Source of the DNA: Candidatus Brocadiia bacterium
GTDB lineage: Bacteria > Planctomycetota > MHYJ01 > JACQXL01
Assembly: GCA_041658285.1 (NCBI GenBank)
Contig: JBBAAP010000002.1
Location: 119,029-183,028 of the forward strand
Reading direction: 5' to 3'
DNA: 64,000 nucleotides
The notes beneath the pieces are model-generated. The model was given only the letters and a program-made list of their open reading frames with translations, was not told the DNA's origin and ran no database searches. Numbering within the stretch: the first letter of the stretch is position 1; every line of letters begins with the position of its first letter. Positions 15,351 to 53,946 of the stretch are shown piece by piece. The position numbers were made by a program, and so were the translations under genes.

Positions 15351-15359
15351 AATTAATTT

Positions 15360-16915: not shown

Positions 16916-16922
16916 ACAAGGT

Positions 16923-18404: not shown

Positions 18405-19918
18405 AACGGTTTCTGGAGATAAAACCATCAATCGCGGTCCCGATGGCGGAACTGCCGGCGCTGGAGTTCAATGATTTCAGGGAACACATCATTGAATCCA
18501 TCCATCAGGGCCGCCGTTTAGCGGCCTTTTACGGCTCCGGCGACAGTTCCGGCAAGGTCAGGATTATCGCCGTATTGGCCGACGACCAAAACGGATTGTT
18601 ATACGCGGCATCATCTTTCCCCGGGGATTCGTTTGATTCACTCACCTCGGACTGCCCACAAGCGCATTGGTTCGAGCGCGAAATAGCCGAACAATGGTCC
18701 GTAAAACCCGAAGGCCATCCCTGGCTTAAACCCATCCGATTCCATACCGCATACCGGGACGGAAAAAAAACCAGCGGCACTCCCCGGCAACCGGAACCAG
18801 TCTGCGGCACAACCGGATTCTTCCAGGTCAGCGGCGACGAAATCCACGAGGTCGCGGTCGGCCCGGTCCACGCCGGTATTATCGAGCCCGGCCATTTCCG
18901 GTTCCAATGCCACGGCGAAGACGTATTGCACCTGGAAATCTCGCTGGGCTACCAGCATCGCGGCATCGAACGCCGTTTGATTGGCGGACCGGACAAGAAA
19001 ACCGCCCACTATATGGAAACACTGGCCGGCGACACGACCATCGGCCATACGCTGGCATATTGCCAGGCAATCGAAGCTCTGTCCGGCTTGTCCGTGCCGG
19101 CGCGCGGGCAAGTTCTGCGCGCCATCGCGCTGGAACTGGAGCGTATCGCCAACCACGTCGGCGACCTGGGCGCGCTGGCCGGAGACGTGGCATTCCTGCC
19201 CACCGCTTCTTACTGCGGCCGGATTCGCGGCGATTTCCTTAATATGACCGCCGTCTTGTGCGGCAACCGCTTCGGGCGCGGACTTGTCCGACCGGGCGGA
19301 ATTATGCATAACATAGACGAAAGACAAATACAAGAGATTGGACAACGGCTTCTCAATGCGGAACAGGACACCCTATCGGCCGTCAACCTCCTCTGGAGCA
19401 ACAGTTCCGTTATGGCCCGGTTTGAGGAAACCGGCGTCGTCTCCAAATCAACCGCGGAAACGACCGGCCTGGTCGGCGTGGCCGCCAGGGCCAGCGGGCT
19501 GGAACGCGATATCCGGCGCGATTTCCCGCAGGGCTACTACCAATACGCTCATATACCCGTTTCCACCTGGAACAACGGCGACGTCTTCGCCCGGGCATTT
19601 GTGCGCTGGATGGAAATACAACGGTCTATCGCATTTATAAAGGAACAAATAAAATCCATCCCGGGCGGACCGATTTCGGTGCCGGAAGCCACACTAAAAC
19701 CGGATTCATTGGTGGTTTCACTGACAGAAGGCTGGCGCGGAGAAATCTGCCACTGCATCATCACGGACCGTGCCGGCCGGGTCGGTCATTACAAGGTAAT
19801 CGACCCGTCGTTCCATAACTGGTTCGGGCTGGCGCTGGCATTGCGGAACCAGCAGATATCCGACTTCCCGCTGTGCAACAAGAGTTTTAACCTGTCCTAT
19901 TGCGGACACGATTTGTAA
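18401..19918 (+). CDS. HyfG/HycE-like (NuoCD-like) large subunit lacking NiFe-binding motifs (Ehr)
   Basis: GPVHAGIIEPGHFRF, GYQHRGIE, ELERIANH, EGWRGE; L1 region reads ETLAGDTTIGH and the C-terminus SFNLSYCGHDL. Start taken at the ATG overlapping the hyfF stop. Confidence 0.88.
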   Translation: MKRFLEIKPSIAVPMAELPALEFNDFREHIIESIHQGRRLAAFYGSGDSSGKVRIIAVLADDQNGLLYAASSFPGDSFDSLTSDCPQAHWFEREIAEQWSVKPEGHPWLKPIRFHTAYRDGKKTSGTPRQPEPVCGTTGFFQVSGDEIHEVAVGPVHAGIIEPGHFRFQCHGEDVLHLEISLGYQHRGIERRLIGGPDKKTAHYMETLAGDTTIGHTLAYCQAIEALSGLSVPARGQVLRAIALELERIANHVGDLGALAGDVAFLPTASYCGRIRGDFLNMTAVLCGNRFGRGLVRPGGIMHNIDERQIQEIGQRLLNAEQDTLSAVNLLWSNSSVMARFEETGVVSKSTAETTGLVGVAARASGLERDIRRDFPQGYYQYAHIPVSTWNNGDVFARAFVRWMEIQRSIAFIKEQIKSIPGGPISVPEATLKPDSLVVSLTEGWRGEICHCIITDRAGRVGHYKVIDPSFHNWFGLALALRNQQISDFPLCNKSFNLSYCGHDL

Positions 19919-19945
19919 TATTTAGTATACAAGGATTAATAAACT

Positions 19946-20698
19946 ATGTGGGACATTCTTATCGCCCGGTTGAAACAGAAATACCGGACCATACCGTATC
20001 CGAAAGGACTGCCCGTCCTGCCAGAGCGGTTTATCGGACGGCCGGCGCCGGTATCAAACAGCGCCGGGCATATAGCAGACGCGGTTAAGGCCTGCCCGAC
20101 CGCGGCATTAAAGATAAGCGCCGGCAATAACCTCAGCCTGGATATGGGCCGATGCGTATTCTGCGGCCAATGCGCCCGGATAGCGCCTGACGCCGTAACC
20201 TTCGGGCGTAACCACAGCCTGGCCGGACGAACCCGGGCCGAACTCATCCTTAAGGGAAAAGACCACAAAGCGCCGGAGCCATTGGATACCAAGCTCCTGA
20301 AACTGTTCGGCAAATCGCTCAAACTACGCCAGGTAAGCGCCGGCGGATGCGGCGCCTGCGAAGCCGATACCAACGTCTTAAACACGGTCGTGTTCGACCT
20401 CGGCCGGTTCGGAATCCAGTTCGTCGCCTCGCCCCGCCACGCGGACGGCCTGTTGATTACCGGGCCGGTAACCAAAAATATGAGGTTAGCCCTGGGAAAA
20501 ACCTATGCCGCCCTGCCCAAGCCAAAAATAGTCATTGCAACCGGCGCCTGCGCCATCTCCGGCGGGCTGTTCAGCGGGCATCCCGAATCCTGCGACGGAG
20601 CCGATACCATCGTCCCGGTAGACCTTTACATCCCCGGCTGTCCCCCACACCCGTTAACTATTCTTGACGGAATGCTCCGCCTTCTTGGCAAGGCCTAG
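19946..20698 (+). CDS. Ferredoxin domain fused to a NuoB/HyfI-like small subunit
   Basis: CPTAA..CVFCGQC; SAGGCGACE, SPRHAD, GACA, IPGCPP. Confidence 0.9.
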   Translation: MWDILIARLKQKYRTIPYPKGLPVLPERFIGRPAPVSNSAGHIADAVKACPTAALKISAGNNLSLDMGRCVFCGQCARIAPDAVTFGRNHSLAGRTRAELILKGKDHKAPEPLDTKLLKLFGKSLKLRQVSAGGCGACEADTNVLNTVVFDLGRFGIQFVASPRHADGLLITGPVTKNMRLALGKTYAALPKPKIVIATGACAISGGLFSGHPESCDGADTIVPVDLYIPGCPPHPLTILDGMLRLLGKA

Positions 20699-30811: not shown

Positions 30812-31285
30812 ATGTTCCGTATTAAAAGAAAAGACGACGACCCAAGTATGGAAATAAACATGACTCCGATGATTGACGTGATTTTTCAGCTGATTATCTT
30901 CTTTATGTGCTCGATTCATTTCAAGTCATTGGAAGGAAAACTGCAGTCTTATCTGCCAAAGAATAAAGGCCCAGAACCGACTATCGTTACAGAACCAGAT
31001 GATCTAAATGAAGTGCGTATCAAGCTTATCTATAGCCCGGATAGCAAACCGCTGATGAGCAAAATTGTAATCGGCACCGAGAACATACCGGATTGGGACG
31101 CTCTGGAAAAACGGGTAACCTCAATTACGGCGGATCAGAGAAATCGAATAACCGAAAAACCTATCCCATTCAAGATAGACCCTCAACTTAAGGTACCAAC
31201 CCAGGCAGTTATTAATGTAATCAATATATGTAAAAAGGCAGGTGTCAGCAAGATAGAATTTGCGTACAAGCCGCCGGATAAGTAA
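30812..31285 (+). CDS. exbD: ExbD/TolR-family biopolymer transporter subunit
   Basis: INMTPMIDVIFQLIIFFM; C-terminal ..VINVINICKKAGVSKIEF. Confidence 0.85.
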   Translation: MFRIKRKDDDPSMEINMTPMIDVIFQLIIFFMCSIHFKSLEGKLQSYLPKNKGPEPTIVTEPDDLNEVRIKLIYSPDSKPLMSKIVIGTENIPDWDALEKRVTSITADQRNRITEKPIPFKIDPQLKVPTQAVINVINICKKAGVSKIEFAYKPPDK

Positions 31286-31482: not shown

Positions 31483-32076
31483 GTGGATAATAAGCCTCAG
31501 GAACAGGATAACCTAAAAGGAGGTACTGATAACCGGGCGCCTGATATCGAGTTGGTCCGAGCCTCTAAAAAAGGCGACAAGAAAGCCTTTGAGGAGCTGA
31601 TTAACAGGTATTATAAGGCTGTTTTCGGGTATATTTACCTGCGGGTAAATAACCAACTTACAAGCGAAGAGCTGACGCAAGAGACCTTTTTACGCGGTTA
31701 CAGGTCACTTCGAAAGCTGTCAGCCAGAACCGGGTTTGCCGAGTGGCTCTTTACCATTGCCCGAAACTGTCATGGCGAATGGGTTCGTGACCAAAAGCGT
31801 GCAATCAGTCATAAAACCGAAACCATGGAATCGGCTAAATCGACCGATCCGGAGCTGATAACCAAGGCCGGCAATGCCGAAAAGGAGAGACTGGAAGACC
31901 TGATGCACCTGATGAAGGAACTGCCGGAAAATCATTACCTGCTGTTAACTATGCGGTTCCAACAGGGAATGAGTTGTGAAGAAATCGCCCGGGCGCTTGA
32001 CCAACCGGTCGGAACGGTAACCGGCACCCTGGCACGAGCTTATAAATTACTGAAAGATGGGCTTAAGTATGAATAA
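31483..32076 (+). CDS. ECF-family RNA polymerase sigma factor
   Basis: GDKKAFEELINRY, EELTQETFLR, WLFTIARN, region 4 GMSCEEIA..PVGTV..LARA. Confidence 0.92.
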   Translation: MDNKPQEQDNLKGGTDNRAPDIELVRASKKGDKKAFEELINRYYKAVFGYIYLRVNNQLTSEELTQETFLRGYRSLRKLSARTGFAEWLFTIARNCHGEWVRDQKRAISHKTETMESAKSTDPELITKAGNAEKERLEDLMHLMKELPENHYLLLTMRFQQGMSCEEIARALDQPVGTVTGTLARAYKLLKDGLKYE

Positions 32077-32629
32077 TTTTGACGAAAATGATAAATCAGC
32101 CATGACAGAGCCGGAGCTGCCTAAAGAGCTGGAAGGCATGCTTAAAGAAACCTTTAAGAGAATGTCTCCGCCTAATACGGCCGCGCTGAACTGCAAAATG
32201 CATATCGCCGGAATGCCTAAACCGTCGGAAAGCATTTGGCTGTATCCTATTATTTACCCGGCGGCAGCGGTTGTTTTAAGCATCCTAAGCATTTTTATAA
32301 TGATGAACTATATGGTTTCTCCTGACCTAGCGCGGGAAACCAGCTTGGTCGCCGATAAGGAAATAACCTTGACCGACGGAACTATTCTGGGCATCGGCAA
32401 GGAGTCGTCGGTTAAGATAGAGGAAAACAACCGGACGCTGGTTCTGGAAAAAGGCTGGCTCAGGGTCAATTGCCCAACCGCATCCGGATTGCCCGGACAG
32501 AATAAATTGCGCATTATTGCTCCGGCCGGCACAATAATAAATAAAGGCGATAATTTTATGGCCGGTTATTCGTCATCATCAAGAACCTTCTCCGTATGGG
32601 GAAGTATTGAACTTTTAACTTCTAAATAG
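32069..32629 (+). CDS. Putative anti-sigma factor (TM plus truncated FecR-like domain)
   Basis: Coupled to the ECF gene; one TM; LTDGTILGIGKESSV..LEKG FecR-like pattern. Confidence 0.65.
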   Translation: MNNFDENDKSAMTEPELPKELEGMLKETFKRMSPPNTAALNCKMHIAGMPKPSESIWLYPIIYPAAAVVLSILSIFIMMNYMVSPDLARETSLVADKEITLTDGTILGIGKESSVKIEENNRTLVLEKGWLRVNCPTASGLPGQNKLRIIAPAGTIINKGDNFMAGYSSSSRTFSVWGSIELLTSK

Positions 32630-32638
32630 GAGGCAATT

Positions 32639-35600
32639 ATGAACAGATTTACAGCTGACAAAAAAGGCGTCGTCTTCATAGTGGTTCTGGGTATTCTGGT
32701 TCTGCTGGTACTTCTGGGCGTAACCTTCAGCCTGGTAGCCCGGATCGACAAGACCAGCTCGGCTTCTTACGCAGACCGAGTCCGGGCTAAGATGATTGCC
32801 CAAAGCGGCATCGAAACAGCTATCGCTAAAATTAAAGCAACCAACGCTCAATTTCCACCCGAAGCCATGTACTGGGGCGAGGATGCCAATAAAAACGGCA
32901 AGCTCGATGCGGATGAAGACCAGAATAAAAATGGCATACTTAACGTGGCCGACTGCCCGCTGGATTACGCACTCCGGCCATCATTCGCAACAGTTGATAA
33001 AGATGATAAACCTAAAACTTTCCAGTTCAAGAACCACAAACGCGGATATTCGGGCGAACTACCAGCTGTTACAAGTGGGACTTCGGATACCTTCGCCATA
33101 AAAATAACCGATTGCAACAGCATGATCTGCATCAACAGCGAAAGCAAAGGGCTGGAACAAATACTCAATAACATAGGTATTATCCTAGACCTGGGCGATA
33201 ATCTCGGCTCCAGGATTATCAACGTCCGCTATTCGCTGGCCACCAAGAAATTTTCCACCAAGGAAGAGTTAAAAACAACCCTGGGCACGGATACCTACAA
33301 CAAAGTATCCCCCTACCTGACCGTTTACGCCTATATCAACGAAAAAGTTGTCAAGCCCAAACCGCTGTCCGAAAGGCCCTGCCGAACGCTGGACGGCAAC
33401 AAACGCCAACTTGAAGTAGGAAGCAATGTCTATACCTGGGCTTCTCTTAACCCGGGCAAACTGGAACTTGAAAAACGCGCCCCGATAAACATCAACGTCG
33501 CGGCCAAACCCATCCTTATGGCGGTATTCGGCAATATTGAGGGTTTCTACCTTAAGGAAGAGGATGTTTCCACCGCTGGTCTTGAATTTCCACCAACAAT
33601 ATCAACATATAAAGATGACGGAATAAATAATGCTCAAAGGATAGGAATTATTCAATCTACCAGTATTGACCTGAAAAAAATCGGGCAAAATAGTTTGGCC
33701 GAACAAATTGCCGACAAAATAATAACGAAAAGAGCAGAAAAACAATTTTCATCTTGGGATGATTTCGATAACTTCCTTAAGGATTTAATCTATGATGGAA
33801 CTCTGGGTGCAAGCAGCGATATAAAAACAGAAGCTCTTTATGATATTATCAGAGCAAATGCAAATCCAAACACTTTATTGAATGATTTCAACCCGAACAA
33901 AACTACTTGGCGCTTTGTGGACAAGGCTGATTTAAATATTTATACAACCGAATTTTGCTTCCAACCTATGGGCTATTTTGAAATCGAGTCCCAAGGCCTG
34001 TTGTCAACACCAACCCCAAGCACTTCAGGCACCCCAATTGCCGAATTACCCCGCAGAATACTCTCCGATTATCGAATAAAATGCATTGTTAAACTTTGGG
34101 AAAATATCTACCAAACTACTCAAAAAGACTTTTCCAACGGAACTATATCCAAAATACCATCGGGCGAAATGTATAATACTTCTACCGGCGACAACCAAGC
34201 ACTTCAGCTTTATCCAGAACCTGCCATAAATGATTACCCCAAGAATTGTGAAGCTGACGGCCAAATTATGCTGGCCACACTTCAGAATACCGCTTCAAAA
34301 CAAAGCGTAAAAATGAGACTTCATTTCGATAAAGCATTAAAAGCTAATGACAGTTGGACCCAGGATGTCGACATTGAGGAAGAAACAGAGGAGGCCGACG
34401 CCAACCTGGTTCCTCATGGCGCATCCTTCAATCGGCCCAATACCAAGAGTCTTTTCAATGACTCCAAGGAAGGCCCCGGATCGCTTTACCCAGATGGAGC
34501 TTATTCGGAATGGGGCGCTACTCCAACATATCACAAAAGTAATTTTGTCGCTTACGAGAAACAAAAAGACCCTAAAACAGGCCAAGATAAACCAACGCAA
34601 AGATTATACGGCTCATTATCCTTCTGGTTAAAATCAAACTATATTAACACCGAAAGATATAGCAGCACAAAGCCAAGAATATTATTCTCGGCTACCAGAT
34701 GCAGTATCGCGGAGATCAGGGCTGGCGTTAACCAAACACTCAACACAACTGTTTTTGAGCTTTTCGCGTTCCCTTATAAATATCTCGAGTACCCTAAACA
34801 TGAATTTGTTAAAAACGACAGTAGCGGCGTCTGGCGAAATTATTTGTTATTCCAGCCCAAAGGAAGATATTTGTGGTTTTGGGAAATCGATCAACGGCCA
34901 AGCGTAACAACTGCCGATGAATACATGGTAACCAATGATTATGTAAGCTCTGATTCAAGTATGAACTCCGGATTAGGAAGACACAACCGAAATGAATGGA
35001 CTCATATCGCTATTGTATGGGACAGTGACCCAAAAACTGGAGTTTCATCATTTCCCTCACCATGCTCAACTTGCGGTGCTGATGGACAAGTCCCGATCCC
35101 CTGTAGTAACTGCGATTCAAATGGAAAGGAAAAAGTGGCGACAGGAAGTGAAGAATGCAAGATCTGCAATGGAACAAAAACTGTCCCTAAATACTGTCCT
35201 ACTTGCGGAGGAAATGGGCGAGTAAACGAAAAATATGAAGACATCGGAAACTGTCCAAAATGTAACGGAACGAAAAAAGAAGAAACCACAACAAAAGAGA
35301 CATGTACTCAATGCAACGGCACTATGAAAATTACAGAAAACTGCAAGAAATGCGGAGGACAAGGATTTACTCCAGGCCTGCCTCCTTACGGCCAAGATCC
35401 CTGCAAAGCATGCAATGAAACAGGAAAAAAAGAAGTTAAATGCCCAGGATGTAAAGACGGATCAATCGATGTCCCGACAGGTCAATTCAAAAATTGTACC
35501 AGATGCGGTGGCTCAGGAAAGGAAAAAGTGCTAAAAAATAGGGGCATACCTTGTACTGCCCCCGGATGCGACAAAGGGGTACTTACTGGTCAAACAAGTC

Positions 35601-36415
35601 CATGCCCTTCTTGTAAAGGTTCTGGGATGACTGATGTAAAGCTTGATTGTCCCGTCTGCGGCGGTAAAGATAGAGTACGTAAGGATAGCCAGGGTAATCC
35701 AGTTACTACGGGTTGCAGCAAATGTGCTGGAACCGGCGCGATAATAACAGAATTTACTGAAAGAAGTGTTCAAAGTTGTTTCGCCCTAATAGTTAATGAT
35801 TCTATATACATCAATGATGTCTGCTGGAAACAAGCTAAAACCCCTCCGGAAGCACCAAATGAGTATCCTGATTTTTCCGCCGGATACAATCTTCTCAGGT
35901 TGGGCGAAAGATATGGTTCACAAATTTGGAATTTTGGAGCCGATTCAACAATTGATGAATTCTCAATAAACCAATATGATTTATCTAAAGAAGCTCAGGA
36001 ATTAGCAATCCAAGAATTCCACAACGGACGTTATTATAAGGGCGAAGCAACATTCACATCTGACTTGGTCCAAATCTTTACACCAACTGGAGATACCAAT
36101 TCTATGAATGCCTCGGTATCATGGACGGCATATTACCCAAAGGATTGGGATACATCAAAAAGAGGAGTAGAAATACAATTTTTTGACGAATCAAACACCT
36201 CCATATCAGAAGCTCTTTCAGACCCTGAAGGAAGCGACTTCACAATACCTCTCAATAAAACAAAAGGATATGCAACCAAAATCAAATACAAATTACTTTT
36301 CCACGGAGACACTGATGACTTAAATACCCCCCTTTTGGAAAGCCCAATATTTGACGATATAACAATAAAGATTATTTACCCTGAACCTATGGTTCTAAAA
36401 TGGTCTTCGGAGTAA
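32639..36415 (+). CDS. Giant PilX/GspK-like protein with a LamG-like domain and a 14-fold Cys-pair insertion
   Basis: KKG|VVFIVVLGILVLL..A..IAQSGIETA PilX-type N-terminus; GspK-like HhH-type segment; LSFWLK and WTHIAIVWD LamG strands; CxxCxGxG repeats at aa ~809-1029. Confidence 0.75.
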   Translation: MNRFTADKKGVVFIVVLGILVLLVLLGVTFSLVARIDKTSSASYADRVRAKMIAQSGIETAIAKIKATNAQFPPEAMYWGEDANKNGKLDADEDQNKNGILNVADCPLDYALRPSFATVDKDDKPKTFQFKNHKRGYSGELPAVTSGTSDTFAIKITDCNSMICINSESKGLEQILNNIGIILDLGDNLGSRIINVRYSLATKKFSTKEELKTTLGTDTYNKVSPYLTVYAYINEKVVKPKPLSERPCRTLDGNKRQLEVGSNVYTWASLNPGKLELEKRAPININVAAKPILMAVFGNIEGFYLKEEDVSTAGLEFPPTISTYKDDGINNAQRIGIIQSTSIDLKKIGQNSLAEQIADKIITKRAEKQFSSWDDFDNFLKDLIYDGTLGASSDIKTEALYDIIRANANPNTLLNDFNPNKTTWRFVDKADLNIYTTEFCFQPMGYFEIESQGLLSTPTPSTSGTPIAELPRRILSDYRIKCIVKLWENIYQTTQKDFSNGTISKIPSGEMYNTSTGDNQALQLYPEPAINDYPKNCEADGQIMLATLQNTASKQSVKMRLHFDKALKANDSWTQDVDIEEETEEADANLVPHGASFNRPNTKSLFNDSKEGPGSLYPDGAYSEWGATPTYHKSNFVAYEKQKDPKTGQDKPTQRLYGSLSFWLKSNYINTERYSSTKPRILFSATRCSIAEIRAGVNQTLNTTVFELFAFPYKYLEYPKHEFVKNDSSGVWRNYLLFQPKGRYLWFWEIDQRPSVTTADEYMVTNDYVSSDSSMNSGLGRHNRNEWTHIAIVWDSDPKTGVSSFPSPCSTCGADGQVPIPCSNCDSNGKEKVATGSEECKICNGTKTVPKYCPTCGGNGRVNEKYEDIGNCPKCNGTKKEETTTKETCTQCNGTMKITENCKKCGGQGFTPGLPPYGQDPCKACNETGKKEVKCPGCKDGSIDVPTGQFKNCTRCGGSGKEKVLKNRGIPCTAPGCDKGVLTGQTSPCPSCKGSGMTDVKLDCPVCGGKDRVRKDSQGNPVTTGCSKCAGTGAIITEFTERSVQSCFALIVNDSIYINDVCWKQAKTPPEAPNEYPDFSAGYNLLRLGERYGSQIWNFGADSTIDEFSINQYDLSKEAQELAIQEFHNGRYYKGEATFTSDLVQIFTPTGDTNSMNASVSWTAYYPKDWDTSKRGVEIQFFDESNTSISEALSDPEGSDFTIPLNKTKGYATKIKYKLLFHGDTDDLNTPLLESPIFDDITIKIIYPEPMVLKWSSE

Positions 36416-36425
36416 ACTTACTGAT

Positions 36426-37598
36426 ATGCCTCAAATTAATGTTCCCCGGATTATTCTAATCCTCCTATTAATCCTGGGAATTAATACAACTCTTTATGCG
36501 GACGAAAAAAAAGTCGAGATCGAAGTTTTCACTTCAATTAGCAACGCAAATAAACCGTCTGAATTATTACTAATTGAGTTAAAAACAAACATTCCTAAAG
36601 AAACACTTATGGTAATGAACATTAGCGGAACTATTTACCGTTCAAATAGCTTAAAAAATATTGCCGTCTCGACCTTACGTGCGGAAATCGACAAAAAAGG
36701 CTATTGCTCAGCGAAATCCTTAACTGTCAAACTTAATGTGTGCGAAGAATATAAAATCGAGGTATCAATTGACAGTGATTACTTGAGAAACAAAGAAAAA
36801 CCGCTAAAAAAGCAGGGTTATAATATTGAGGACCTTTCAAAAATAAGAATAATACATTCTATTAACCTTGCATCTCCGTCCTTATCTATGAAAAGGCAAA
36901 AAAGCGCTTTATCCATAGCGGCAGAACTGCGCAAATTGATTAATTTACAACCGGATATCGCCAGATGCATGCAAGAATATAAGTCCTTATCATCTAATAT
37001 AGAACTTTCGAATCAACTTAAAAGAATACAACAAACTATGTCTAAGGAAAATTTCTTCCTTGATACCGCAGATTATATCCAACAAATAACCAAACGAATA
37101 TATTTATACGAATTATCCCTTAACTCCAACCCGCAGGAAACTCTTGTTAAACTCCCAACCCCAGAAGAAATGAGTATTGCTTATAATGTTTTTAGCGAAG
37201 AAATCGGCTTTAAAATTCATCAGGATTTACTCTATTTGATAAAAACCTACCAGGAATCGCTTGGCGATAATCTAGGAAATATGCAAAATAATATCACCCT
37301 CGAAAATATAAATCAAAAAAAATGGGTCAGTGCAAATACTAATTCAAAAAAACTCCTGGATCAAATTATTGAGGAATGCGCCGCTTACAAAACAGTCGGC
37401 AATTTCCCTGACAATAGTTACTCGAAAAAAATAGACTACTTTATAGCTGCTTGTTCAAAAACAGACACCTTAAGGGAATCTCTAATCAATCTCGTTAAGG
37501 AACCAAACAACACTAATTTCTTAAAGATTGCAAAACAAAACTGGCGTGTAGTATTAGAGCATTTAAGCGCCATCAAGCTTGTTACCCAACAAAAATAA
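36426..37598 (+). CDS. Hypothetical exported protein, low GC
   Basis: 390-aa ORF with a signal-peptide-like start; no motif recognised. Confidence 0.7.
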   Translation: MPQINVPRIILILLLILGINTTLYADEKKVEIEVFTSISNANKPSELLLIELKTNIPKETLMVMNISGTIYRSNSLKNIAVSTLRAEIDKKGYCSAKSLTVKLNVCEEYKIEVSIDSDYLRNKEKPLKKQGYNIEDLSKIRIIHSINLASPSLSMKRQKSALSIAAELRKLINLQPDIARCMQEYKSLSSNIELSNQLKRIQQTMSKENFFLDTADYIQQITKRIYLYELSLNSNPQETLVKLPTPEEMSIAYNVFSEEIGFKIHQDLLYLIKTYQESLGDNLGNMQNNITLENINQKKWVSANTNSKKLLDQIIEECAAYKTVGNFPDNSYSKKIDYFIAACSKTDTLRESLINLVKEPNNTNFLKIAKQNWRVVLEHLSAIKLVTQQK

Positions 37599-37603
37599 CA
37601 AGC

Positions 37604-38653
37604 TTATTTATCTAATTTTCCCTTGATAAACTGCGCCCTAAGTATGTCCCGCTCGGTCGCATTGAGCGACTTCTTTTCCATTTTTTGAAGGTGGGACGGC
37701 TGGGTAAGAATAAACAACTCGTTAATCGTTTTAAGAGAAATATCTTTTATCAATCCCGTGGTGATACCCAGCCGGATAACCGAAAAAAGCTCCAGAGCTT
37801 CTTCCGACGAAACTGACCGCGCATAACGAAGCACCCCGTAAGAGCGATAAACCTTGTCTTCCATGCGTTTATGGGAGTCATTGAGCATCTTATCACGGCA
37901 ACCCCGCTCATATTTTACTATCTCCGGGATGATATTAGCCAATTCGCTGGCTATCTCCTTTTCTGATTTTCCCAGGGTCACCTGGTTGGAAATCTGGTAG
38001 AAATCACCGGTTGCTTCCGTGCCTTCGCCGTAAAAACCGCGAACCATTATTTTTATCCGGCCAAGAGCCTGGAATACTTTATTTATCTGCTTAATCATAG
38101 CTAGAGCCGGCAGGTGAAGCATAACCGAAACACGCATGCCGGTCCCGGCGTTGGTAGGACAGGCGGTCAGGTATCCGAACTGCGGCGAAAAAGCATACGG
38201 CAAAACGCTTTCCACCTGGTTATCAAGCGCGTCAAGCTCCTCCCAGGCTTTTTCTATCTGCAAGCCGGATTTGAGGACCTGAAGCCTGAGATGGTCCTCC
38301 TCATTGACCATGATAGCCTGCGATTCCTTACTGTTGACAAAAAGCCCTCTTGCCCCGCTACCCGAAACCATGTCCTTACTTATCAGGTGGCGCTCAACCA
38401 ACAACCCCCTGTCCAGGCTGTTCATTTCTTTCATAAAAAAATAATCCGTGCCAGACTTTGACAGAATCGGTTGAAGTTTGGCCCTGATATACTCCTCTAT
38501 TTCCGACTGCTGTTTCTCATTAGCCATGGTCAGAAAAATAAAGCCGTGAAGATTCCGGGCCAGTCGTACGCGGCTGCTTATAACCACATCAGAATCCGGG
38601 CCGTTACCTTTAATCCATTCCCCGGCCTGCGACAAGAAACTATCGATTTTCAT
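37604..38653 (-). CDS. mcsB: Protein arginine kinase McsB
   Basis: SSRVRLARN, LLVERHLIS, MVNEEDHLR, YLTACPTNAGTG; start re-assigned to MKIDSF at 38653. Confidence 0.93.
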   Translation of the reverse strand: MKIDSFLSQAGEWIKGNGPDSDVVISSRVRLARNLHGFIFLTMANEKQQSEIEEYIRAKLQPILSKSGTDYFFMKEMNSLDRGLLVERHLISKDMVSGSGARGLFVNSKESQAIMVNEEDHLRLQVLKSGLQIEKAWEELDALDNQVESVLPYAFSPQFGYLTACPTNAGTGMRVSVMLHLPALAMIKQINKVFQALGRIKIMVRGFYGEGTEATGDFYQISNQVTLGKSEKEIASELANIIPEIVKYERGCRDKMLNDSHKRMEDKVYRSYGVLRYARSVSSEEALELFSVIRLGITTGLIKDISLKTINELFILTQPSHLQKMEKKSLNATERDILRAQFIKGKLDK

Positions 38654-39182
38654 CTGTTTTTTTATTCTTAGCGGCATTCTTTCTGGCGCCGGATTTCTGC
38701 CGCAAAGAATTGATTTTATCCCTGATTTTAGCGGCTTCCTCGAATTTCTCCTGCCTGACCAATTGCTCCAGTTCTTTCTGCAAATCCTTAATCTCCTTTT
38801 CCTTAAGCACATTAGGGTTAACCTGGGCCGGCACCTTGCCTCTATGGTGGGTGCTATGATGTATCTTTTCCAGTAACGGCTCGACGCCGCCCTTAAAAAC
38901 TTCATAATCATGGGCGCATCCAAACCGCATTTTTGTCTTAAAAAGCAAATAGCTCATCCCGCAATGTTCGCACTTGGCATCAGCCATTTCCTTGACCATT
39001 TTTCCGATAATCGGCTCCATAAAACTGCCCATTATTTCAGCCAGAGAGAAGGGCATTTTATGGGTCACGCCTTCTTTCTGAGCGCAATCGGTGCAGAGAT
39101 GGAGCTCTTGATTAACATTATGATTGACTATCTCAGTCATATGGATAGTCGCCTGTTTTTTATTACACTTACCGCACAGCAT
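38640..39182 (-). CDS. mcsA: McsA (McsB activator, UVR domain)
   Basis: MLCGKC, LCTDCA, CEHCG, GCAHDY, EEAAKIRDKI. Confidence 0.92.
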   Translation of the reverse strand: MLCGKCNKKQATIHMTEIVNHNVNQELHLCTDCAQKEGVTHKMPFSLAEIMGSFMEPIIGKMVKEMADAKCEHCGMSYLLFKTKMRFGCAHDYEVFKGGVEPLLEKIHHSTHHRGKVPAQVNPNVLKEKEIKDLQKELEQLVRQEKFEEAAKIRDKINSLRQKSGARKNAAKNKKTDENR

Positions 39183-39543
39183 AATAGCACGCTCCACACT
39201 GGGCTGATTCCCAGACGCATACCTTGATCACTTTAACCCGTTTGGTTTTTAGTTTTTTCTGAAGTTTAACTGATATTAAAAATGAAATATTTTCGGTGGT
39301 CGGGTTTAACTTTCTAAAATCCGGCAGCTCGTTCAGGTATTTATGGTCGTATTCTTCCAGAACTGAATTGATTATTTTCTTAAGCTCGTCAAAATCAATA
39401 ATCATGCCCTGAGAATTAAGTTTGCCGCCCCGTATGGTCACATCCACATTCCAGTTATGGCCGTGCAGATTCTCGCACTTACCGCGGTATCCTCGTAATC
39501 TATGAGCCGAAGAAAAATGGTTTTTTATCAAAAGTTCATACAT
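39169..39543 (-). CDS. queD: 6-carboxy-5,6,7,8-tetrahydropterin synthase
   Basis: FSSAHRL..KCENLHGHNW, DHKYLN, PTTEN, VWES. Confidence 0.92.
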   Translation of the reverse strand: MYELLIKNHFSSAHRLRGYRGKCENLHGHNWNVDVTIRGGKLNSQGMIIDFDELKKIINSVLEEYDHKYLNELPDFRKLNPTTENISFLISVKLQKKLKTKRVKVIKVCVWESAQCGACYYAVR

Positions 39544-44815: not shown

Positions 44816-46024
44816 TTATTCTACTATCTTGGTAACAACGCCGGCGCCAACAGTCCTGCCGCCTTCACGAATAGCGAACCGCAGCTTATCTTCCATGGCT
44901 ATCGGTGTCATCAGCTCCACGTTCAAACTTACGTTCTCGCCCGGCATTACCATTTCCACCTTGGCCGGAAGCTTGACCTCGCCGGTAACATCCGTGGTCC
45001 TGAAGTAGAACTGGGGCCTGTATCCGGAGAAAATCGGCGTATGGCGTCCACCTTCATCCTTAGACAGGATGTACACCTCACACTCAAATTTAGTGTGCGG
45101 CGTGATTGTGCCCGGAGCGGAAACAACCATCCCGCGTTCCAAATCATCCTTTTCAACGCCACGCAGCAAGATGCCGACATTGTCGCCGGTAATGCCCTCA
45201 TCCAGCAGTTTATTGAACATTTCTATACCGGTAACAACGCTCTTCCTTATTTCCTTGGAAAATCCGACAATGTCAACCGGATCATTAATCTTTACTCTCC
45301 CGCGTTCGATACGGCCGGTACCAACCGTACCGCGCCCTTTGATGCTGAATACATCTTCAATCTGCATCAGGAACGTCTTATCCACTTGGCGAATCGGTTC
45401 CGGAATATTAGCATCAATCGCATCCATTAACTGCCAGATTGGGCCGCAGTTGGGGCATTCCTTCTTGGCGCATAGGCATTCCAAAGCCTTCATTGCCGAA
45501 CCTTTGATAATGGCAATCTTGTCGCCCGGGAACTGAAATTTAGTCAAGAGTTCCCTAACCTCCACCTCAACCAACTCTAAAAGTTCCGGATCAGTGACTA
45601 AATCGCACTTATTCAAGAATACCACCAGCGCCGGCACCTGAACCTGTCGGGCCAGAAGCACGTGTTCCCTTGTCTGGGGCATCGGGCCGTCTGCCGCGGA
45701 AACCACTAGAATCGCGCCGTCCATCTGGGCCGCGCCGGTAATCATGTTCTTAATGTAATCCGCATGTCCCGGGCAGTCGATGTGTGCATAATGGCGTTTA
45801 TCTGTCTGATATTCAACGTGCGCCACCTGAATCGTCAGAATCTTGGTTTCACCGCGTTGCTCACCGCCCTTGGCTATTTCCGCATAAGTCCTGGCGTTTG
45901 ATAATTTATGCTTGGCTAGGACGTTTGTAATCGCGCTGGTTAAACTGGTTTTGCCGTGATCAATGTGCCCGATGGTTCCCACATTCAAGTGTGGTTTTGT
46001 CCGATCAAATTTTTCCTTGGCCAT
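44816..46024 (-). CDS. tuf: Elongation factor Tu
   Basis: [37 protein letters not shown]. Confidence 0.99.
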
Positions 46025-46059: not shown

Positions 46060-46132
46060 AGCTGTTGACGGGAATTGCACCCGTGACCTCGTCCTTACCA
46101 AGGACGTGCTCTTCTAGCTGAGCTACAACAGC
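46060..46132 (-). tRNA. tRNA-Thr(GGT), no encoded CCA
   Basis: Cloverleaf: acceptor GCTGTTG/CAACAGC, anticodon loop TTGGTAA, T-loop TGCAATT. Confidence 0.93.
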
Positions 46133-46162
46133 GTTTATTTCAATACGCTGTTCGAACGCAAA

Positions 46163-46190
46163 ACTATAGCAGTTTAATATTTAGTGTCAA
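46163..46190 (-). promoter_or_regulatory. Internal sigma70 promoter for tRNA-Thr(GGT)-tuf
   Basis: TTGACA-16 nt-TATAGT with an extended TG on the minus strand. Confidence 0.55.
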
Positions 46191-46274
46191 GTTATTTATA
46201 TATTTTGTATTAAATTCCTGACTTTAAAATTCAGCCGTGATATCCCTCCCCTAAAACCATCATTTTATCTAAGT

Positions 46275-46350
46275 TGGAGCGGCGGACCGGGGTCGAACCG
46301 GCGACCGTCTGCTTGGAAGGCAGATGTTCTACCAATTGAACTACCGCCGC
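46275..46350 (-). tRNA. tRNA-Gly(TCC)
   Basis: Acceptor GCGGCGG/CCGCCGC, loop CTTCCAA, CCA encoded. Confidence 0.96.
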
Positions 46351-46353
46351 TCT

Positions 46354-46485
46354 TACTCCCTGTTAGCTATCGCCTGAATATTTTCAGGAGATAGCGTTAC
46401 AGCGGAGTTAGACCCCGCACCTATCTTTCCGGGATAGGTGCGGGGTATAAGAAATTCTAAGGCTCACGTTTCGCCAAGAATTTCT
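46354..46485 (+). repeat. Cluster of hairpins in the tRNA-Gly/tRNA-Tyr spacer (family A unit plus accccgcacc/ggtgcggggt IR plus agaaattct/agaatttct IR)
   Basis: ctgtTA-[gctatc..gatagc]-GTTacag, followed by two further inverted repeats (IRs). Confidence 0.65.
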
Positions 46486-46488
46486 AAA

Positions 46489-46571
46489 TGGGCAGGGAGG
46501 GATTCGAACCCCCGAAGCTAAAAAGCAACAGATTTACAGTCTGTCCCCTTTGGCCGCTTGGGTACCTGCCC
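46489..46571 (-). tRNA. tRNA-Tyr(GTA), no encoded CCA
   Basis: Acceptor GGGCAGG/CCTGCCC, loop CTGTAAA, long variable arm. Confidence 0.95.
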
Positions 46572-46599
46572 CGTTATCCCGCCTTAGCAGTATAACGGG
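46570..46599. mobile_element. Miniature CCCGTTA...TAACGGG element (family B) overlapping the tRNA-Tyr 5' end
   Basis: cccgttatcccgccttagcagtataacggg. Confidence 0.6.
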
Positions 46600-46622
46600 G
46601 CATGCCCAAAACAAGTTCTATA

Positions 46623-46694
46623 AGCTGGGAGCGGGATTTGCACCCGCAACCGCCGGTTTACAAAACCGGAGCTCCGCTGTTGAGCTATCCCAGC
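46623..46694 (-). tRNA. tRNA-Thr(TGT), no encoded CCA
   Basis: Acceptor GCTGGGA/TCCCAGC, loop TTTGTAA, T-loop TGCAAAT. Confidence 0.93.
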
Positions 46695-46726
46695 CCCGTT
46701 ATCCCGCCAGAGGGCGGGATAACGGG
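46695..46726. mobile_element. Miniature family B element abutting the tRNA-Thr(TGT) 5' end
   Basis: cccgttatcccgcc-agag-ggcgggataacggg, a perfect 14-bp IR. Confidence 0.65.
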
Positions 46727-50690: not shown

Positions 50691-50811
50691 CCCCGGCAGT
50701 GACCTACTTTCCCACCGAATAAATCATCAGTAGTATCATTGGCCCCAAGGGCTTAACGGCCGTATTCGAGATGGGAACGGGTGTGGCCCCTTGGGAATTG
50801 GACCACCGGGA
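50691..50811 (-). rRNA. rrf: 5S rRNA
   Basis: CCCGGTGG...ACACCCGTTCCCATCTCGAATAC..GTTAAGC..GGGAAAGTAGGTCACTGCCGGG. Confidence 0.93.
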
Positions 50812-50912
50812 GTTAAAAATAAAACGTACAATACGCTGGCAGCTTTAAGCAGCTATTACTGCCAGTCATAGCCGGCTTTAACAGCCGACTATATGGGCTC
50901 AAGGATAAAAAA

Positions 50913-53946
<3,034 letters not shown>

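What the first reader, a model, noticed from the sequence alone, without database searches (positions are those of the whole stretch)
35063..35725. Fourteen DnaJ-like Cys pairs inserted into a LamG-like domain of an exported pilin-like protein
Residues ~809-1029 contain 13 CxxC motifs and one Cx4C, mostly CxxCxGxG-like (CSTC, CSNC, CKIC, CPTC, CPKC, CTQC, CKKC, CKAC, CPGC, CTRC, CTAPGC, CPSC, CPVC, CSKC). They sit between the LamG-type strands WTHIAIVWD and FALIVND. DnaJ uses four such motifs, paired in nested fashion, for two Zn ions. Fourteen could form an elongated hairpin stalk with up to seven metal sites. Such an array in an extracytoplasmic pilus-tip protein is unexpected; metal binding, redox or disulfide activity are all possible.
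Basis: partly seen in the sequence, partly recalled or inferred. Interest (0 to 1): 0.7.

Follow-up and report, generated by a model that had tools for sequence, protein, structure and literature searches.

The report
Fourteen-motif cysteine array in pilin-like protein
A large surface protein of an uncultured planctomycete carries a ready-made block of 14 DnaJ-type cysteine pairs (seven likely metal sites) inside a lectin-like domain; the block recurs in other envelope proteins, none of them studied, and its function is untested.

Summary
ORF 32639-36415 (+, 1258 aa) has 13 CxxC and one Cx4C at aa 809-1029, exactly nt 35063-35725. Shuffles of the protein give about 1.

The host belongs to a Planctomycetota family of ~1000-aa proteins. 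They have a GspK/PilX-like N-terminal helix, a Laminin_G_3-type domain and a C-terminal beta-sandwich, and a conserved secreted partner gene follows. Homology maps the LamG domain across the insert, so the array sits in one LamG beta-hairpin.

Relatives carry 0, 2, about 12 or 14 motifs in that loop. The array is not a local expansion. It aligns motif for motif (35% identity) with a fixed 14-motif module at the C-terminus of an unrelated membrane-anchored family. Only four-motif DnaJ domains have solved structures.

AlphaFold gave no confident fold for the insert, so the pairing is unresolved: one nested ladder, three DnaJ-like hairpins (4+6+4), or serial ribbons.

Zinc-type Cys4 sites are the best-supported reading. 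The sequence is DnaJ-like, has almost no hydrophobic core, shows a Cys-to-Asp swap and has odd Cys counts in relatives.

In the closest relative, an in-frame UGA with a SECIS-like hairpin replaces one motif cysteine. This hints at reactive thiol chemistry.

Verdict: real, and a new variant of known kinds. Function untested.

The parts
30812..31285 (+). ExbD/TolR-like gene, 198 nt upstream of the sigma factor gene
   Evidence: Pfam ExbD, 67.7 bits. An ExbD gene lies next to the array-bearing orthologues in L001 and L005 as well.
31483..32076 (+). ECF sigma factor, first gene of the tight operon
   Evidence: Pfam Sigma70_r2, Sigma70_r4_2 and Sigma70_ECF. It overlaps the next gene. By tblastn it is found only beside the array-bearing clade among the 38 loci then held.
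32057..32629 (+). FecR-like anti-sigma factor
   Evidence: Weak Pfam FecR hit at aa 101-180. It ends 10 nt before the large ORF. Orthologues are present in L001 and L005.
32639..36415 (+). The 1258-aa host protein (P0001): GspK/PilX-like N-terminus, LamG-like domain carrying the insert, and a C-terminal beta-sandwich
   Evidence: ORF. Fifty homologues besides the protein itself, every one with an organism name being from Planctomycetota MAGs. Domain evidence.
32639..32740 (+). Short basic leader (MNRFTADKKG) followed by a 24-residue hydrophobic helix, pilin/pseudopilin-like
   Evidence: Weak matches to PilX_N (aa 9-59), NCBIfam T2SS_GspK (aa 9-86) and Verru_Chthon_A (aa 10-70). PilX_N passes its cut-off in family member P0027. 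AlphaFold predicts a continuous helix at aa 7-61 of homologue P0008.
33086..33808 (+). GspK-like region with the helix-hairpin-helix signature APININVA (approximate bounds)
   Evidence: Weak Pfam T2SSK hit at aa 283-300. The family profile matches P. aeruginosa T2SS protein K (5vtm) at E=0.0016, including 'aPiNiNtA'. T2SSK passes its cut-off in P0047.
34601..35062 (+). N-terminal half of the Laminin_G_3-type domain, ending in strand WTHIAIVWD
   Evidence: Pfam Laminin_G_3 hits in P0047, P0036, P0035, P0045 and P0020 map through alignment A1 onto P0001 aa 655-1122. Weak profile matches to LamG-like domains 5hon and pentraxins.
35063..35725 (+). The 14-motif Cys array (aa 809-1029): 13 CxxC plus one Cx4C, 28 Cys, seven potential four-ligand sites
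   Evidence: for positions. DnaJ Cys-rich-domain homology. Motif-for-motif alignment with the 14-motif module of P0053/54/56/76/82. Only 13% hydrophobic residues.
35726..36004 (+). C-terminal half of the Laminin_G_3-type domain (FALIVND ... LRLGER ... STIDEFSI)
   Evidence: Same mapping as the N-terminal half. The motif 'G..(W)..(D)xTIDE..I' aligns with LamG-like 5hon.
36005..36412 (+). C-terminal beta-sandwich domain
   Evidence: The AlphaFold model of aa 540-1258 has pLDDT about 90 here and is all-beta. Foldseek gives only weak lectin/CBM-type beta-sandwich matches.
36426..37598 (+). Conserved partner gene: a 390-aa protein with an N-terminal signal-like segment and no known family
   Evidence: No Pfam or PDB match. 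It is 31% identical to the gene downstream of P0002, and that gene matches the 439-aa gene downstream of P0005 at 21% identity (E=4e-10). A gene of 420-500 aa follows family members in L002, L003, L005 and L020.

Best explanation
The region encodes a discrete domain of about 220 residues built from 14 DnaJ-type CxxC(xGxG) knuckles. That gives seven four-ligand (tetrathiolate) sites, most likely binding zinc.

The domain sits in the beta-hairpin between two adjacent strands of a Laminin_G_3-type lectin-like domain. The host is a large protein anchored by an N-terminal GspK/PilX-like helix and predicted to face outside the cytoplasm.

The domain has almost no hydrophobic core, so it must be held together by its Cys sites. 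The knuckles most likely pair in antiparallel, DnaJ-like hairpin fashion, either as one seven-rung ladder or as three hairpin units of 4+6+4 motifs. Either arrangement returns the chain to the LamG loop and projects a cross-linked, fast-evolving stalk from the lectin-like module.

Shown: the motif array, its DnaJ homology, its insertion point, its identity as a shared 14-motif module, and the conserved operon.

Inferred: metal occupancy, the pairing topology, export, and the role as a distal contact or spacer element. The thiols may also be chemically reactive.

The gene is probably switched on by its own ECF sigma/FecR-like pair.
For: - Motifs and positions. They are conserved across orthologues, while non-Cys/Gly residues are only 26% identical against 58-61% in the flanks.
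- DnaJ homology: 1EXK at E=3.4e-5 (single sequence) and 4.7e-12 (profile); Pfam 61.6 bits in orthologue P0002. DnaJ-type domains with four such motifs bind zinc (PMC5818400).
- Insertion in one LamG domain.
- Discrete module: exactly 14 motifs with near-identical spacing in all 9 members examined of an unrelated family, 35% identity to this insert, and invariant features beyond Cys/Gly such as 'CD' in motif 11.
- Core-less composition: 13% hydrophobic residues against 31% in the rest of the protein.
- Metal rather than obligatory disulfides. P0002 and P0003 have Asp in place of the first Cys of motif 14, giving 27 Cys, an odd number. The P0004 read-through product has 23 ligand positions. In P0001 motif 11 lost its second Cys and gained one five residues upstream, so the site keeps four ligands.
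- Hairpin-type pairing. The relatives with two motifs keep them at the same distance from the LamG strands as motifs 1 and 14. AlphaFold predicts a zinc-ribbon-like four-strand unit there (pLDDT 74-84). Spacings are palindromic about the centre (inner pairs p about 0.002 in P0002/3; p=0.0007-0.04 in the other family). Arm lengths change together: 49/54, 57/58, 59/60 and 28/33 residues.
- Operon and ECF sigma association.
- N-terminal helix and GspK signature.
Against: - No metal, redox state or structure was measured.
- AlphaFold left the insert below pLDDT 50 and without secondary structure.
- The palindromic spacing test excluded the outermost pair after the fact. With all pairs included p is 0.06-0.25. 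Period-2 spacing patterns are automatically palindromic, so serial two-motif ribbons are not excluded. P0004's spacings look period-2.
- A DnaJ profile matches motifs 11-14 best as a complete four-motif unit. That argues against a single seven-rung ladder.
- Extracytoplasmic CxxC motifs are usually oxidised to disulfides where a Dsb system exists, and I could not check for one.
- P0001 scores 1.7 bits below the Pfam cut-off for DnaJ_CXXCXGXG.
- No prepilin cleavage motif model matches, and no pilus or T2SS genes were found nearby. Foldseek did not recover GspK.
- A possible selenocysteine in the closest homologue fits reactive chemistry better than a purely structural zinc site.
Confidence: 0.5

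Rival explanations
1. The array is a chemically active thiol (or selenol) module rather than a passive scaffold. Its CxxC pairs would cycle between dithiol and disulfide, or capture soft metals or metalloids. It would then serve as an extracytoplasmic oxidoreductase or holdase, a redox sensor, or a metal-binding element at the tip of the protein, with or without structural zinc in some sites.
For: In the closest homologue (L005, 58% identical) an in-frame TGA sits exactly at the first Cys of motif 3. The frame stays open for 387 more codons. The 37 nt after the UGA fold at -18.4 kcal/mol, with a 5-nt loop CGGGA 17 nt from the UGA. This meets the four bacterial SECIS criteria quoted in PMC13188914. 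The orthologous UGC sites fold at only -2.4 and -7.8 kcal/mol. A hairpin of this kind follows only 1.7% of codons in that gene. Sec/Cys pairs typically mark redox-active cysteines (PMC1794560), and some prokaryotic selenoproteins may use Sec as a metal ligand (PMC13188914). DnaJ's Cys-rich domain shows thiol-disulfide oxidoreductase activity in vitro (PMC5818400). The operon begins with an ECF sigma/FecR-like pair, the arrangement typical of responses to an extracytoplasmic cue.
Against: The TGA could be a sequencing error or a nonsense mutation, since TGC or TGT to TGA is one base. The 70-nt fold is not better than shuffles (z=0.45). No Rfam family matched, and the Sec machinery of that MAG could not be checked. 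The hairpin criteria were fixed after seeing the hairpin. The protein in this window has Cys, not Sec. Fourteen equivalent motifs with little conservation around them do not resemble a single catalytic site.
Confidence: 0.25
2. The array is a metal-free, disulfide-bonded cysteine-rich stalk, as in many extracellular Cys-rich repeats. The resemblance to DnaJ would reflect only a shared knuckle geometry.
For: The domain is predicted to lie outside the cytoplasm, where Cys-rich repeats are usually oxidised (general knowledge). It has no hydrophobic core and needs covalent or metal cross-links. P0001 has an even number of array Cys, 28.
Against: P0002 and P0003 have 27 array Cys, with Asp replacing one. 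P0004 has 23 ligand positions. An all-disulfide fold would leave free thiols. The conserved xGxG after each CxxC is the zinc-knuckle signature of DnaJ, and sequence homology to zinc-binding DnaJ domains is significant (PMC5818400). The genome context hints at an anaerobe: a cluster with Mrp-type antiporter-like (Proton_antipo_M) and Complex1_49kDa-type subunits (an anaerobic hydrogenase-like complex is my reading), a B12-binding radical SAM enzyme and 4Fe-4S proteins.
Confidence: 0.15
3. The insert is a tolerated, functionally neutral insertion into a variable surface loop, with no role of its own.
For: The loop is very labile in the family. It holds 0 motifs (P0019 onward and the 1009-aa protein of L020), 2 motifs, about 12 or 14. 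Non-ligand residues evolve fast.
Against: All ligand positions are conserved over orthologues that are only 26% identical at other insert positions. The motif count and spacing are conserved in a second, unrelated family. A lost ligand was compensated in P0001.
Confidence: 0.05

Closest known systems
DnaJ/Hsp40 type I central cysteine-rich domain (Pfam PF00684; PDB 1EXK, 1NLT)
   Same: It has the same CxxCxGxG knuckle motif, with significant sequence similarity (1EXK E=4.7e-12 to the module profile). Motifs 11-14 match a profile built from 47 true DnaJ proteins over its full length, including the 'CD' start and a 17/17-19/14 spacing in the membrane-anchored family against 17/22-26/14 in DnaJ. 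In DnaJ, four motifs bind two zinc ions (PMC5818400). The nested 1-4 / 2-3 pairing is from my own knowledge of the 1EXK structure.
   Different: There are 14 motifs instead of 4. There is no J domain, G/F region or DnaJ C-terminal domain. The predicted location is extracytoplasmic, and the domain is inserted into a loop of a LamG-like domain. P0001 scores just under the Pfam cut-off (31.0 against 32.7 bits).
Stand-alone DnaJ-like zinc-finger proteins (plant and algal BSD2/ZnJ2, LQY1, PSA2; bacterial anti-TRAP, PF15777)
   Same: The DnaJ-type Cys-rich motifs are used outside a DnaJ chaperone context. These proteins bind zinc and some have holdase or thiol-oxidoreductase activities (PMC5818400). 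There are weak Anti-TRAP matches in the orthologue and in related arrays.
   Different: Those proteins have two to four motifs and are small soluble or membrane-tethered proteins. None is an insertion in a lectin-like domain of a pilin-like protein.
Modular type IV pilins and GspK-type minor pseudopilins (S. sanguinis PilB/PilC; T2SS GspK/XcpX, PDB 5VTM)
   Same: Both have an N-terminal hydrophobic helix followed by large grafted modules. A pilin fused to a PF13385 (concanavalin A-like lectin) module is one of the commonest modular pilin architectures, and such proteins are proposed to sit at filament tips (PMC8179133). The family profile matches XcpX at E=0.0016, including the NxNTA helix-hairpin-helix signature.
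   Different: No prepilin cleavage/methylation motif model matches. No GspH/I/J-type or pilus machinery genes were found among the neighbours scanned. Foldseek did not recover GspK. The protein is three to four times larger than GspK. No modular pilin with a Cys-knuckle array turned up in the literature searches.
Uncharacterised family with two TFIIB-type zinc ribbons, a membrane helix and a C-terminal 14-CxxC module (P0053, P0054, P0076, P0082, P0104, P0105; P0056 lacks the ribbons)
   Same: It carries the same 14-motif module, aligned motif for motif at 30-35% identity and with the same spacing pattern.
   Different: The module is C-terminal rather than inserted. The host protein is unrelated. 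The neighbouring gene is CsgG/FlgO-like. The only source name is the automatic 'DnaJ-class molecular chaperone'.

Membership tests
DnaJ central cysteine-rich domain (Pfam PF00684 DnaJ_CXXCXGXG) | Repeated CxxCxGxG motifs | tested here: met
   13 CxxC and one Cx4C, most followed by xGxG or a near variant.
DnaJ central cysteine-rich domain (Pfam PF00684 DnaJ_CXXCXGXG) | Score at or above the curated Pfam cut-off (32.7 bits) | tested here: inconclusive
   P0001 scores 31.0 bits, just below the cut-off. Orthologue P0002 scores 61.6 bits. PDB 1EXK matches at E=3.4e-5 and 4.7e-12.
DnaJ central cysteine-rich domain (Pfam PF00684 DnaJ_CXXCXGXG) | Four motifs forming two zinc centres in a nested hairpin | not testable with these tools
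No metal data exist.
Type I DnaJ/Hsp40 chaperone | J domain and DnaJ C-terminal substrate-binding domains flanking the Cys-rich region | tested here: not met
   No PF00226 or PF01556 match at E<=1. NCBIfam DnaJ_bact scores 17 bits against a cut-off of 377.
T2SS minor pseudopilin GspK (PF03934, NF037980) | Family model score above cut-off | tested here: inconclusive
   P0001 scores 16.5 bits on T2SSK (cut-off 24.2) and 14.7 bits on NF037980 (cut-off 130). Family member P0047 scores 27.3 bits, above the cut-off. The family profile matches 5vtm at E=0.0016.
T2SS minor pseudopilin GspK (PF03934, NF037980) | Encoded with other pseudopilins and T2SS machinery | tested here: not met
   None of the 30 window ORFs scanned against Pfam is a T2SS or type IV pilus component. 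None appears in the gene tables of L001, L002, L003 or L005.
T2SS minor pseudopilin GspK (PF03934, NF037980) | GspK fold (pilin fold with an inserted alpha-domain) | tested here: inconclusive
   The P0008 model (pLDDT 82) has a 55-residue N-terminal helix and a helical region. Foldseek against the PDB listed no GspK chain among the top 50.
Type IV pilin-like proteins (class III signal peptide, IPR012902/TIGR02532) | Prepilin cleavage/methylation motif | tested here: not met
   No NCBIfam prepilin-type match at E<=1. Only PilX_N is seen: 14.5 bits in P0001 and 28.4 bits in P0027, against a cut-off of 25.5. A Gly precedes the hydrophobic helix, but there is no Glu at +5 (from the sequence).
Laminin_G_3 / concanavalin A-like lectin domain (PF13385) | Family model match covering both flanks of the insert | tested here: inconclusive
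   P0001 itself has no hit at E<=1. P0047 (47.9 bits) and P0036 (28.9 bits) exceed the cut-off of 27.6, and their hits map onto P0001 aa 655-1122 across the insert.
Laminin_G_3 / concanavalin A-like lectin domain (PF13385) | Beta-sandwich jelly-roll fold | tested here: inconclusive
   The models are beta-rich with good confidence in the flanks. Foldseek matches to lectin, CBM, neurexin-LNS and BoNT binding domains all have E>=2e-3.
14-CxxC module shared with P0053/54/56/76/82/104/105 (unnamed) | Exactly 14 motifs, alignable one to one with conserved position-specific features | tested here: met
   Alignment A5 has 42 invariant columns, including C-D in motif 11, and 30-35% identity.
Bacterial selenoprotein (applies to the homologue in L005, not to the window protein) | In-frame UGA aligned with Cys in homologues, plus a downstream SECIS meeting the consensus constraints | tested here: met
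   The TGA at L005 12461 aligns with C840 of P0001. The hairpin has a 5-nt loop CGGGA, a 5-7 bp upper stem, 17-nt spacing and -18.4 kcal/mol. The criteria are from PMC13188914.
Bacterial selenoprotein (applies to the homologue in L005, not to the window protein) | Genome encodes selA, selB, selD and tRNA-Sec | not testable with these tools
Only three contigs of that MAG are held.

The most novel reading that the evidence does not exclude
The 14-knuckle module may not be a zinc scaffold. It could be a chain of seven closely spaced, redox-active tetrathiolate centres, either rubredoxin-like Fe(Cys)4 or thiol/selenol-disulfide sites, with selenocysteine in one lineage. Displayed on the distal lectin-like domain of a pilin-like surface protein, it would act as an extracytoplasmic electron relay, a redox sensor or a soft-metal or metalloid capture device. 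Its expression would be controlled by the adjacent ECF sigma/FecR-like pair.
Probability: 0.08. Interest if true: 0.9.

Novelty: new variant of a known kind. Interest (0 to 1): 0.62.

Why it matters
DnaJ-type zinc knuckles are known almost only as four-motif units inside cytoplasmic or organellar chaperones. Here the same motif forms a fixed 14-motif, core-less domain. It has no solved structure and no studied member. It moves between unrelated envelope proteins, and in this case it has been grafted into a lectin-like domain of a giant pilin-like protein.

If the seven sites bind metal, this is a new way to build a long, stable surface appendage from very little sequence.

If they are reactive, as the possible selenocysteine variant suggests, it is a new kind of extracytoplasmic thiol or redox module in anaerobic planctomycetes.

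Either way it gives a concrete, small, expressible target of about 240 residues for metal analysis and structure determination.

Tried and rejected
- A word-indexed homologue search with the insert alone returned nothing at E<=0.001, not even the protein itself. The exhaustive representative search was used instead.
- Tandem Repeats Finder found no DNA repeat in 34900-35900. Recent tandem duplication is rejected.
- AlphaFold on aa 540-1258 with 42 sequences left the insert below pLDDT 50 with no secondary structure. Coordinates are not exposed, so Cys-Cys distances could not be measured.
- Foldseek of both models against the PDB gave only weak beta-sandwich and lectin hits (E>=2e-3). It gave no GspK and no clear LamG match, probably because the queries are long and multi-domain.
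- A metagenome scan with clade-specific patterns found no further array-bearing relatives. The broader scan found only 0- or 2-motif relatives, as did the genome scan. No form with 4 to 10 motifs was seen.
- A period-2 spacing model was not supported for P0001-3 (p=0.4-0.6). It cannot be excluded for P0004.
- Correlating spacings across 12 arrays put the mirror pair d6/d8 first. Other mirror pairs ranked 9th to 34th of 66, so the test does not discriminate.
- Rfam search around the L005 TGA found nothing meaningful. The 70-nt fold was no better than shuffles.
- The partner protein has no Pfam or PDB match.
- Insert GC content (0.448) resembles the rest of the gene (0.424), so there is no sign of recent transfer.
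- Gradual local expansion from 2 to 14 motifs is rejected. The 14-motif block is as similar to the module of an unrelated family as to its own orthologues.

Full report
**Observation.** The region lies in one long ORF, window 32639-36415 on the + strand, encoding 1258 aa.
- Twenty-eight of its 38 cysteines fall between aa 809 and 1029.
- Shuffling the protein gives on average 1.1 CxxC and never more than 6 in 2000 trials.
- There is no DNA-level tandem repeat.
- The segment is rich in Gly, Lys, Thr and Pro. Only 13% of its residues are hydrophobic, against 31% in the rest of the protein. It cannot have a conventional core.

**The host protein.** A search of 5.8 billion proteins found 50 relatives besides the protein itself. 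Every one that carries an organism name is from a Planctomycetota metagenome-assembled genome. Genome loci include Candidatus Brocadiia and Brocadiaceae bins from groundwater.
- The family is about 1000 aa long.
- The N-terminus is a short basic leader ending in Gly, followed by a long hydrophobic helix. It gives weak PilX_N, T2SS GspK and Verru_Chthon_A matches in this protein. PilX_N and T2SSK exceed their cut-offs in family members P0027 and P0047.
- A family profile matches P. aeruginosa T2SS protein K (5vtm) at E=0.0016, through the 'APxNxNTA' helix-hairpin-helix signature.
- AlphaFold on the homologue P0008 (pLDDT 82, pTM 0.83) predicts a continuous helix at aa 7-61, as in pilins.
- Against a strict pilin assignment: no prepilin-motif model matches, Foldseek did not return GspK, and none of the 30 window ORFs I scanned against Pfam is a T2SS or pilus component.
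- 'Pilin-like, N-terminally anchored and facing outward' is therefore a reasonable inference. 'Pilus-tip protein' is not shown.

**The insertion point.** P0001 has no direct Laminin_G_3 hit. Five distant family members do, and P0047 (47.9 bits) and P0036 (28.9 bits) exceed the cut-off of 27.6. Carried through the family alignment, these hits cover P0001 aa ~655-1122, on both sides of the array.
- The profile also aligns weakly with the LamG-like domain of arabinanase 5hon and with pentraxins. That alignment places W-H-I-A...WD and the following Y/F-x-x-N-G strand as neighbours.
- In canonical members the two strands are joined by a few residues (WHHIALTWD--AVSQKLYFDG).
- Pilin plus PF13385 is among the commonest 'modular pilin' architectures (PMC8179133).

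**Variation among relatives.** That hairpin is highly variable in the family.

| Relatives | Identity to P0001 | Motifs in the loop |
|---|---|---|
| Distant members, and a 1009-aa relative in L020 (42%) | low to 42% | none |
| P0005-P0018 clade and seven genome loci | ~34% | exactly two CxxC |
| P0002, P0003 | 52% and 51% | 13 CxxC plus DxxC |
| P0004 (read through its TGA) | 58% | 11 complete motifs plus a lone Cys |

- The two motifs of the ~34% clade lie 18-52 residues apart. They sit at the same distance from the LamG strands as motifs 1 and 14 here.
- AlphaFold models that pair in P0008 as four short strands with a knuckle after the first and third, a zinc-ribbon-like unit.
- A 2-motif paralogue (P0007) and the array-bearing P0004 occur in the same MAG. 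The forms are therefore paralogous, not merely orthologous variants.

**The array is a pre-formed module.** An exhaustive HMMER search of 1.84 billion representatives with the insert found 49 other proteins. Many carry long CxxCxGxG arrays in predicted extracytoplasmic settings: after a signal peptide, after the membrane helix of a Ser/Thr kinase, or next to Big domains.
- One family stands out. It has two TFIIB-type zinc ribbons, a membrane helix and a C-terminal array (P0056 lacks the ribbons). All 9 of its sequences examined have exactly 14 motifs with nearly constant spacing.
- Its array aligns motif for motif with the insert at 35% identity. That is as high as P0001 against its own orthologue P0002 within the array. 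Shared position-specific features include an invariant Cys-Asp in motif 11 and CPxCxxGxV in motif 9.
- In two genomes the gene for this family is followed by a CsgG/FlgO-like gene.
- The array here is therefore a discrete mobile domain, not a local run-away expansion.
- A profile of it matches only four-motif DnaJ domains (1exk at 4.7e-12, also 2ctt, 6jzb, 1nlt) and anti-TRAP in the PDB. No long array has a solved structure.

**Pairing topology.** This is unresolved. Three arrangements remain possible.

*For antiparallel, DnaJ-like pairing:*
- The precedent of DnaJ itself.
- An insertion into a beta-hairpin needs its two ends close together.
- The 2-motif relatives keep the first and last positions.
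- Spacings are mirror-symmetric about the central gap. In P0002 the pairs are 18/17, 17/18, 21/20, 19/20 and 15/15. Permutation gives p about 0.002 for the inner five pairs but 0.06-0.07 with the outermost pair included. The unrelated family gives p=0.0007-0.04.
- Arm lengths change together between relatives. Motifs 3 to 6 against 9 to 12 measure 49/54, 57/58, 59/60 and 28/33 residues. Motifs 6 to 7 against 8 to 9 measure 13/13, 15/15, 15/15 and 13/13.

*Against a single seven-rung ladder:*
- A profile built from 47 genuine DnaJ proteins matches motifs 11-14 best, as a complete four-motif unit (33-47 bits in the other family). It also matches motifs 1-4.
- Local spacing maxima fall at gaps 2, 7 and 12. 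This suggests three hairpin units of 4+6+4 motifs.

*Serial two-motif ribbons* also give palindromic spacing whenever the pattern has period 2, as in P0004. A cross-array correlation test did not discriminate.

My rough weights are: single ladder 0.4, three hairpins 0.35, serial ribbons 0.25. All three give seven four-ligand sites.

**Metal, disulfide or reactive thiols.**

*Points favouring metal sites:*
- Significant homology to a zinc-binding domain (PMC5818400).
- Conserved Gly after each CxxC.
- Asp, a competent zinc ligand, replaces one Cys in P0002 and P0003. This leaves 27 Cys.
- P0004 has 23 ligand positions.
- In P0001 a lost ligand in motif 11 (CDKG instead of CDxC) is compensated by a new Cys five residues upstream.
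- Odd Cys counts are awkward for an all-disulfide fold.
- Outside Cys and Gly the array is only 26% identical between orthologues whose flanks are 58-61% identical. This suits a scaffold with a fast-evolving surface.
- The window encodes a cluster with Mrp-type antiporter-like (Proton_antipo_M) and Complex1_49kDa-type subunits, a B12-binding radical SAM enzyme and 4Fe-4S proteins. I read the cluster as an anaerobic hydrogenase-like complex. This hints weakly at an anaerobe, in which extracytoplasmic thiolate sites are more plausible.

*The point favouring reactivity:* P0004 ends at a TGA that sits exactly on the first Cys of motif 3.
- The frame continues for 387 codons through the rest of the array and the LamG domain.
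- The 37 nt after the UGA fold at -18.4 kcal/mol, with a CGGGA loop 17 nt from the codon.
- This satisfies the four bacterial SECIS constraints quoted in PMC13188914.
- The orthologous UGC sites fold at -2.4 and -7.8 kcal/mol. A comparable hairpin follows only 1.7% of codons in that gene.
- Caveats: the criteria were chosen after seeing the hairpin, the longer fold is unremarkable, and a one-base error cannot be excluded. I put selenocysteine at roughly even odds.
- If it is real, at least that site is likely to do chemistry rather than only hold structure.

**Genomic context.** The ECF sigma gene (31483-32076) overlaps the FecR-like anti-sigma gene (32057-32629). That gene ends 10 nt before the large ORF. 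A 390-aa secreted partner starts 11 nt after the large ORF. An ExbD-like gene lies just upstream.
- The sigma, anti-sigma and ExbD trio accompanies all three array-bearing genomes (window, L001, L005). By tblastn it was not found beside any 0- or 2-motif relative among the loci held, though many of those loci have little upstream sequence.
- A gene of comparable size follows family members in every locus examined; similarity to the window's partner is detectable only in the nearer ones.
- The rest of the window is ordinary chromosome: 23S and 5S rRNA without an adjacent 16S, a tRNA cluster next to tuf, and McsA/McsB.

**Most likely mechanism.** The protein is inserted with its N-terminal helix in the membrane (N-in, by the basic leader) and the remainder outside the cytoplasm. 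Its LamG-type module carries, in one hairpin, a 14-knuckle domain whose seven Cys4 sites are most likely zinc-occupied. These sites clamp antiparallel hairpins into a compact or elongated core-less appendage. The appendage would serve as a protease- and heat-resistant contact or spacer element, and its surface diverges quickly. Thiol or selenol reactivity of some sites is a live alternative. Metal occupancy, topology, export and function are all inferred.

**Comparison and novelty.** The closest known entities are the DnaJ Cys-rich domain, the stand-alone DnaJ-like zinc-finger proteins, and modular pilins or GspK. The region is not a DnaJ chaperone, since the J and C-terminal domains are absent. 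It is not a demonstrable GspK either.
- What is new: the 14-motif module as a fixed unit, its insertion into a LamG hairpin of a pilin-like giant protein, and the possible Sec variant.
- Literature searches for CXXCXGXG with pilin, with periplasm, or with extracellular repeats, and for GspK in Planctomycetes, found no description.
- I class it as a new variant of known kinds, with moderately high interest.

Noticed in passing
L005 12461-12463 (NCBI GCA_043808305.1, JAZDFB010000148.1); homologue of window 35156-35158: The closest homologue (P0004, annotated as 820 aa) stops at an in-frame TGA placed exactly on the first Cys of motif 3. The frame stays open for 387 more codons. A -18.4 kcal/mol hairpin with a CGGGA loop lies 17 nt downstream. 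This is a candidate selenocysteine (UxxC) in a DnaJ-type motif, or else a one-base error.
   Followed up: partly
L039 6001-8230 and L040 1556-3711: An unrelated family carries the same 14-CxxC module at its C-terminus, after a membrane helix (in most members also after two TFIIB-type zinc ribbons). In both genomes examined its gene is followed by a CsgG/FlgO-like gene. This suggests an uncharacterised envelope system.
   Followed up: partly
L020 144-6839: Two family genes lie in tandem, each followed by its own 420-470-aa partner gene. The first (cut by the contig end) has two CxxC motifs in the LamG loop. The second (1009 aa, 42% identical to P0001) has none. The loop content differs even between adjacent paralogues.
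   Followed up: partly
window 36426-37598 (+): A conserved 390-aa partner gene with a signal-like N-terminus has no Pfam or PDB match. A counterpart follows almost every family member.
   Followed up: partly
window 50691-53944 (-): A 23S and 5S rRNA pair lies here with no 16S gene adjacent in the window. An unlinked rRNA arrangement fits what I recall for Planctomycetota.
   Followed up: no
window 37604-39197 (-): A McsB-type protein arginine kinase (ATP:guanido phosphotransferase domain) and a UVR-motif McsA-like gene lie directly downstream on the opposite strand. They are syntenic in L001 and L005. To my knowledge this pair is best known from Gram-positive bacteria.
   Followed up: no
window 7188-9617 (-): An 809-aa protein combines Kelch repeats (N-terminal half) with RCC1 repeats (C-terminal half), giving two beta-propellers in one bacterial protein.
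   Followed up: no
window 12676-20698 (+): A gene cluster encodes Mrp/NuoL-type antiporter-like subunits, a NuoH-like subunit and a Complex1_49kDa ([NiFe]-hydrogenase large-subunit-like) protein. It may be an energy-converting hydrogenase-type complex, which would suggest an anaerobic lifestyle.
   Followed up: no
window 46060-46695 (-) and 44816-46024 (-): A tRNA cluster (Thr-Gly-Tyr-Thr) lies immediately upstream of an EF-Tu gene.
   Followed up: no
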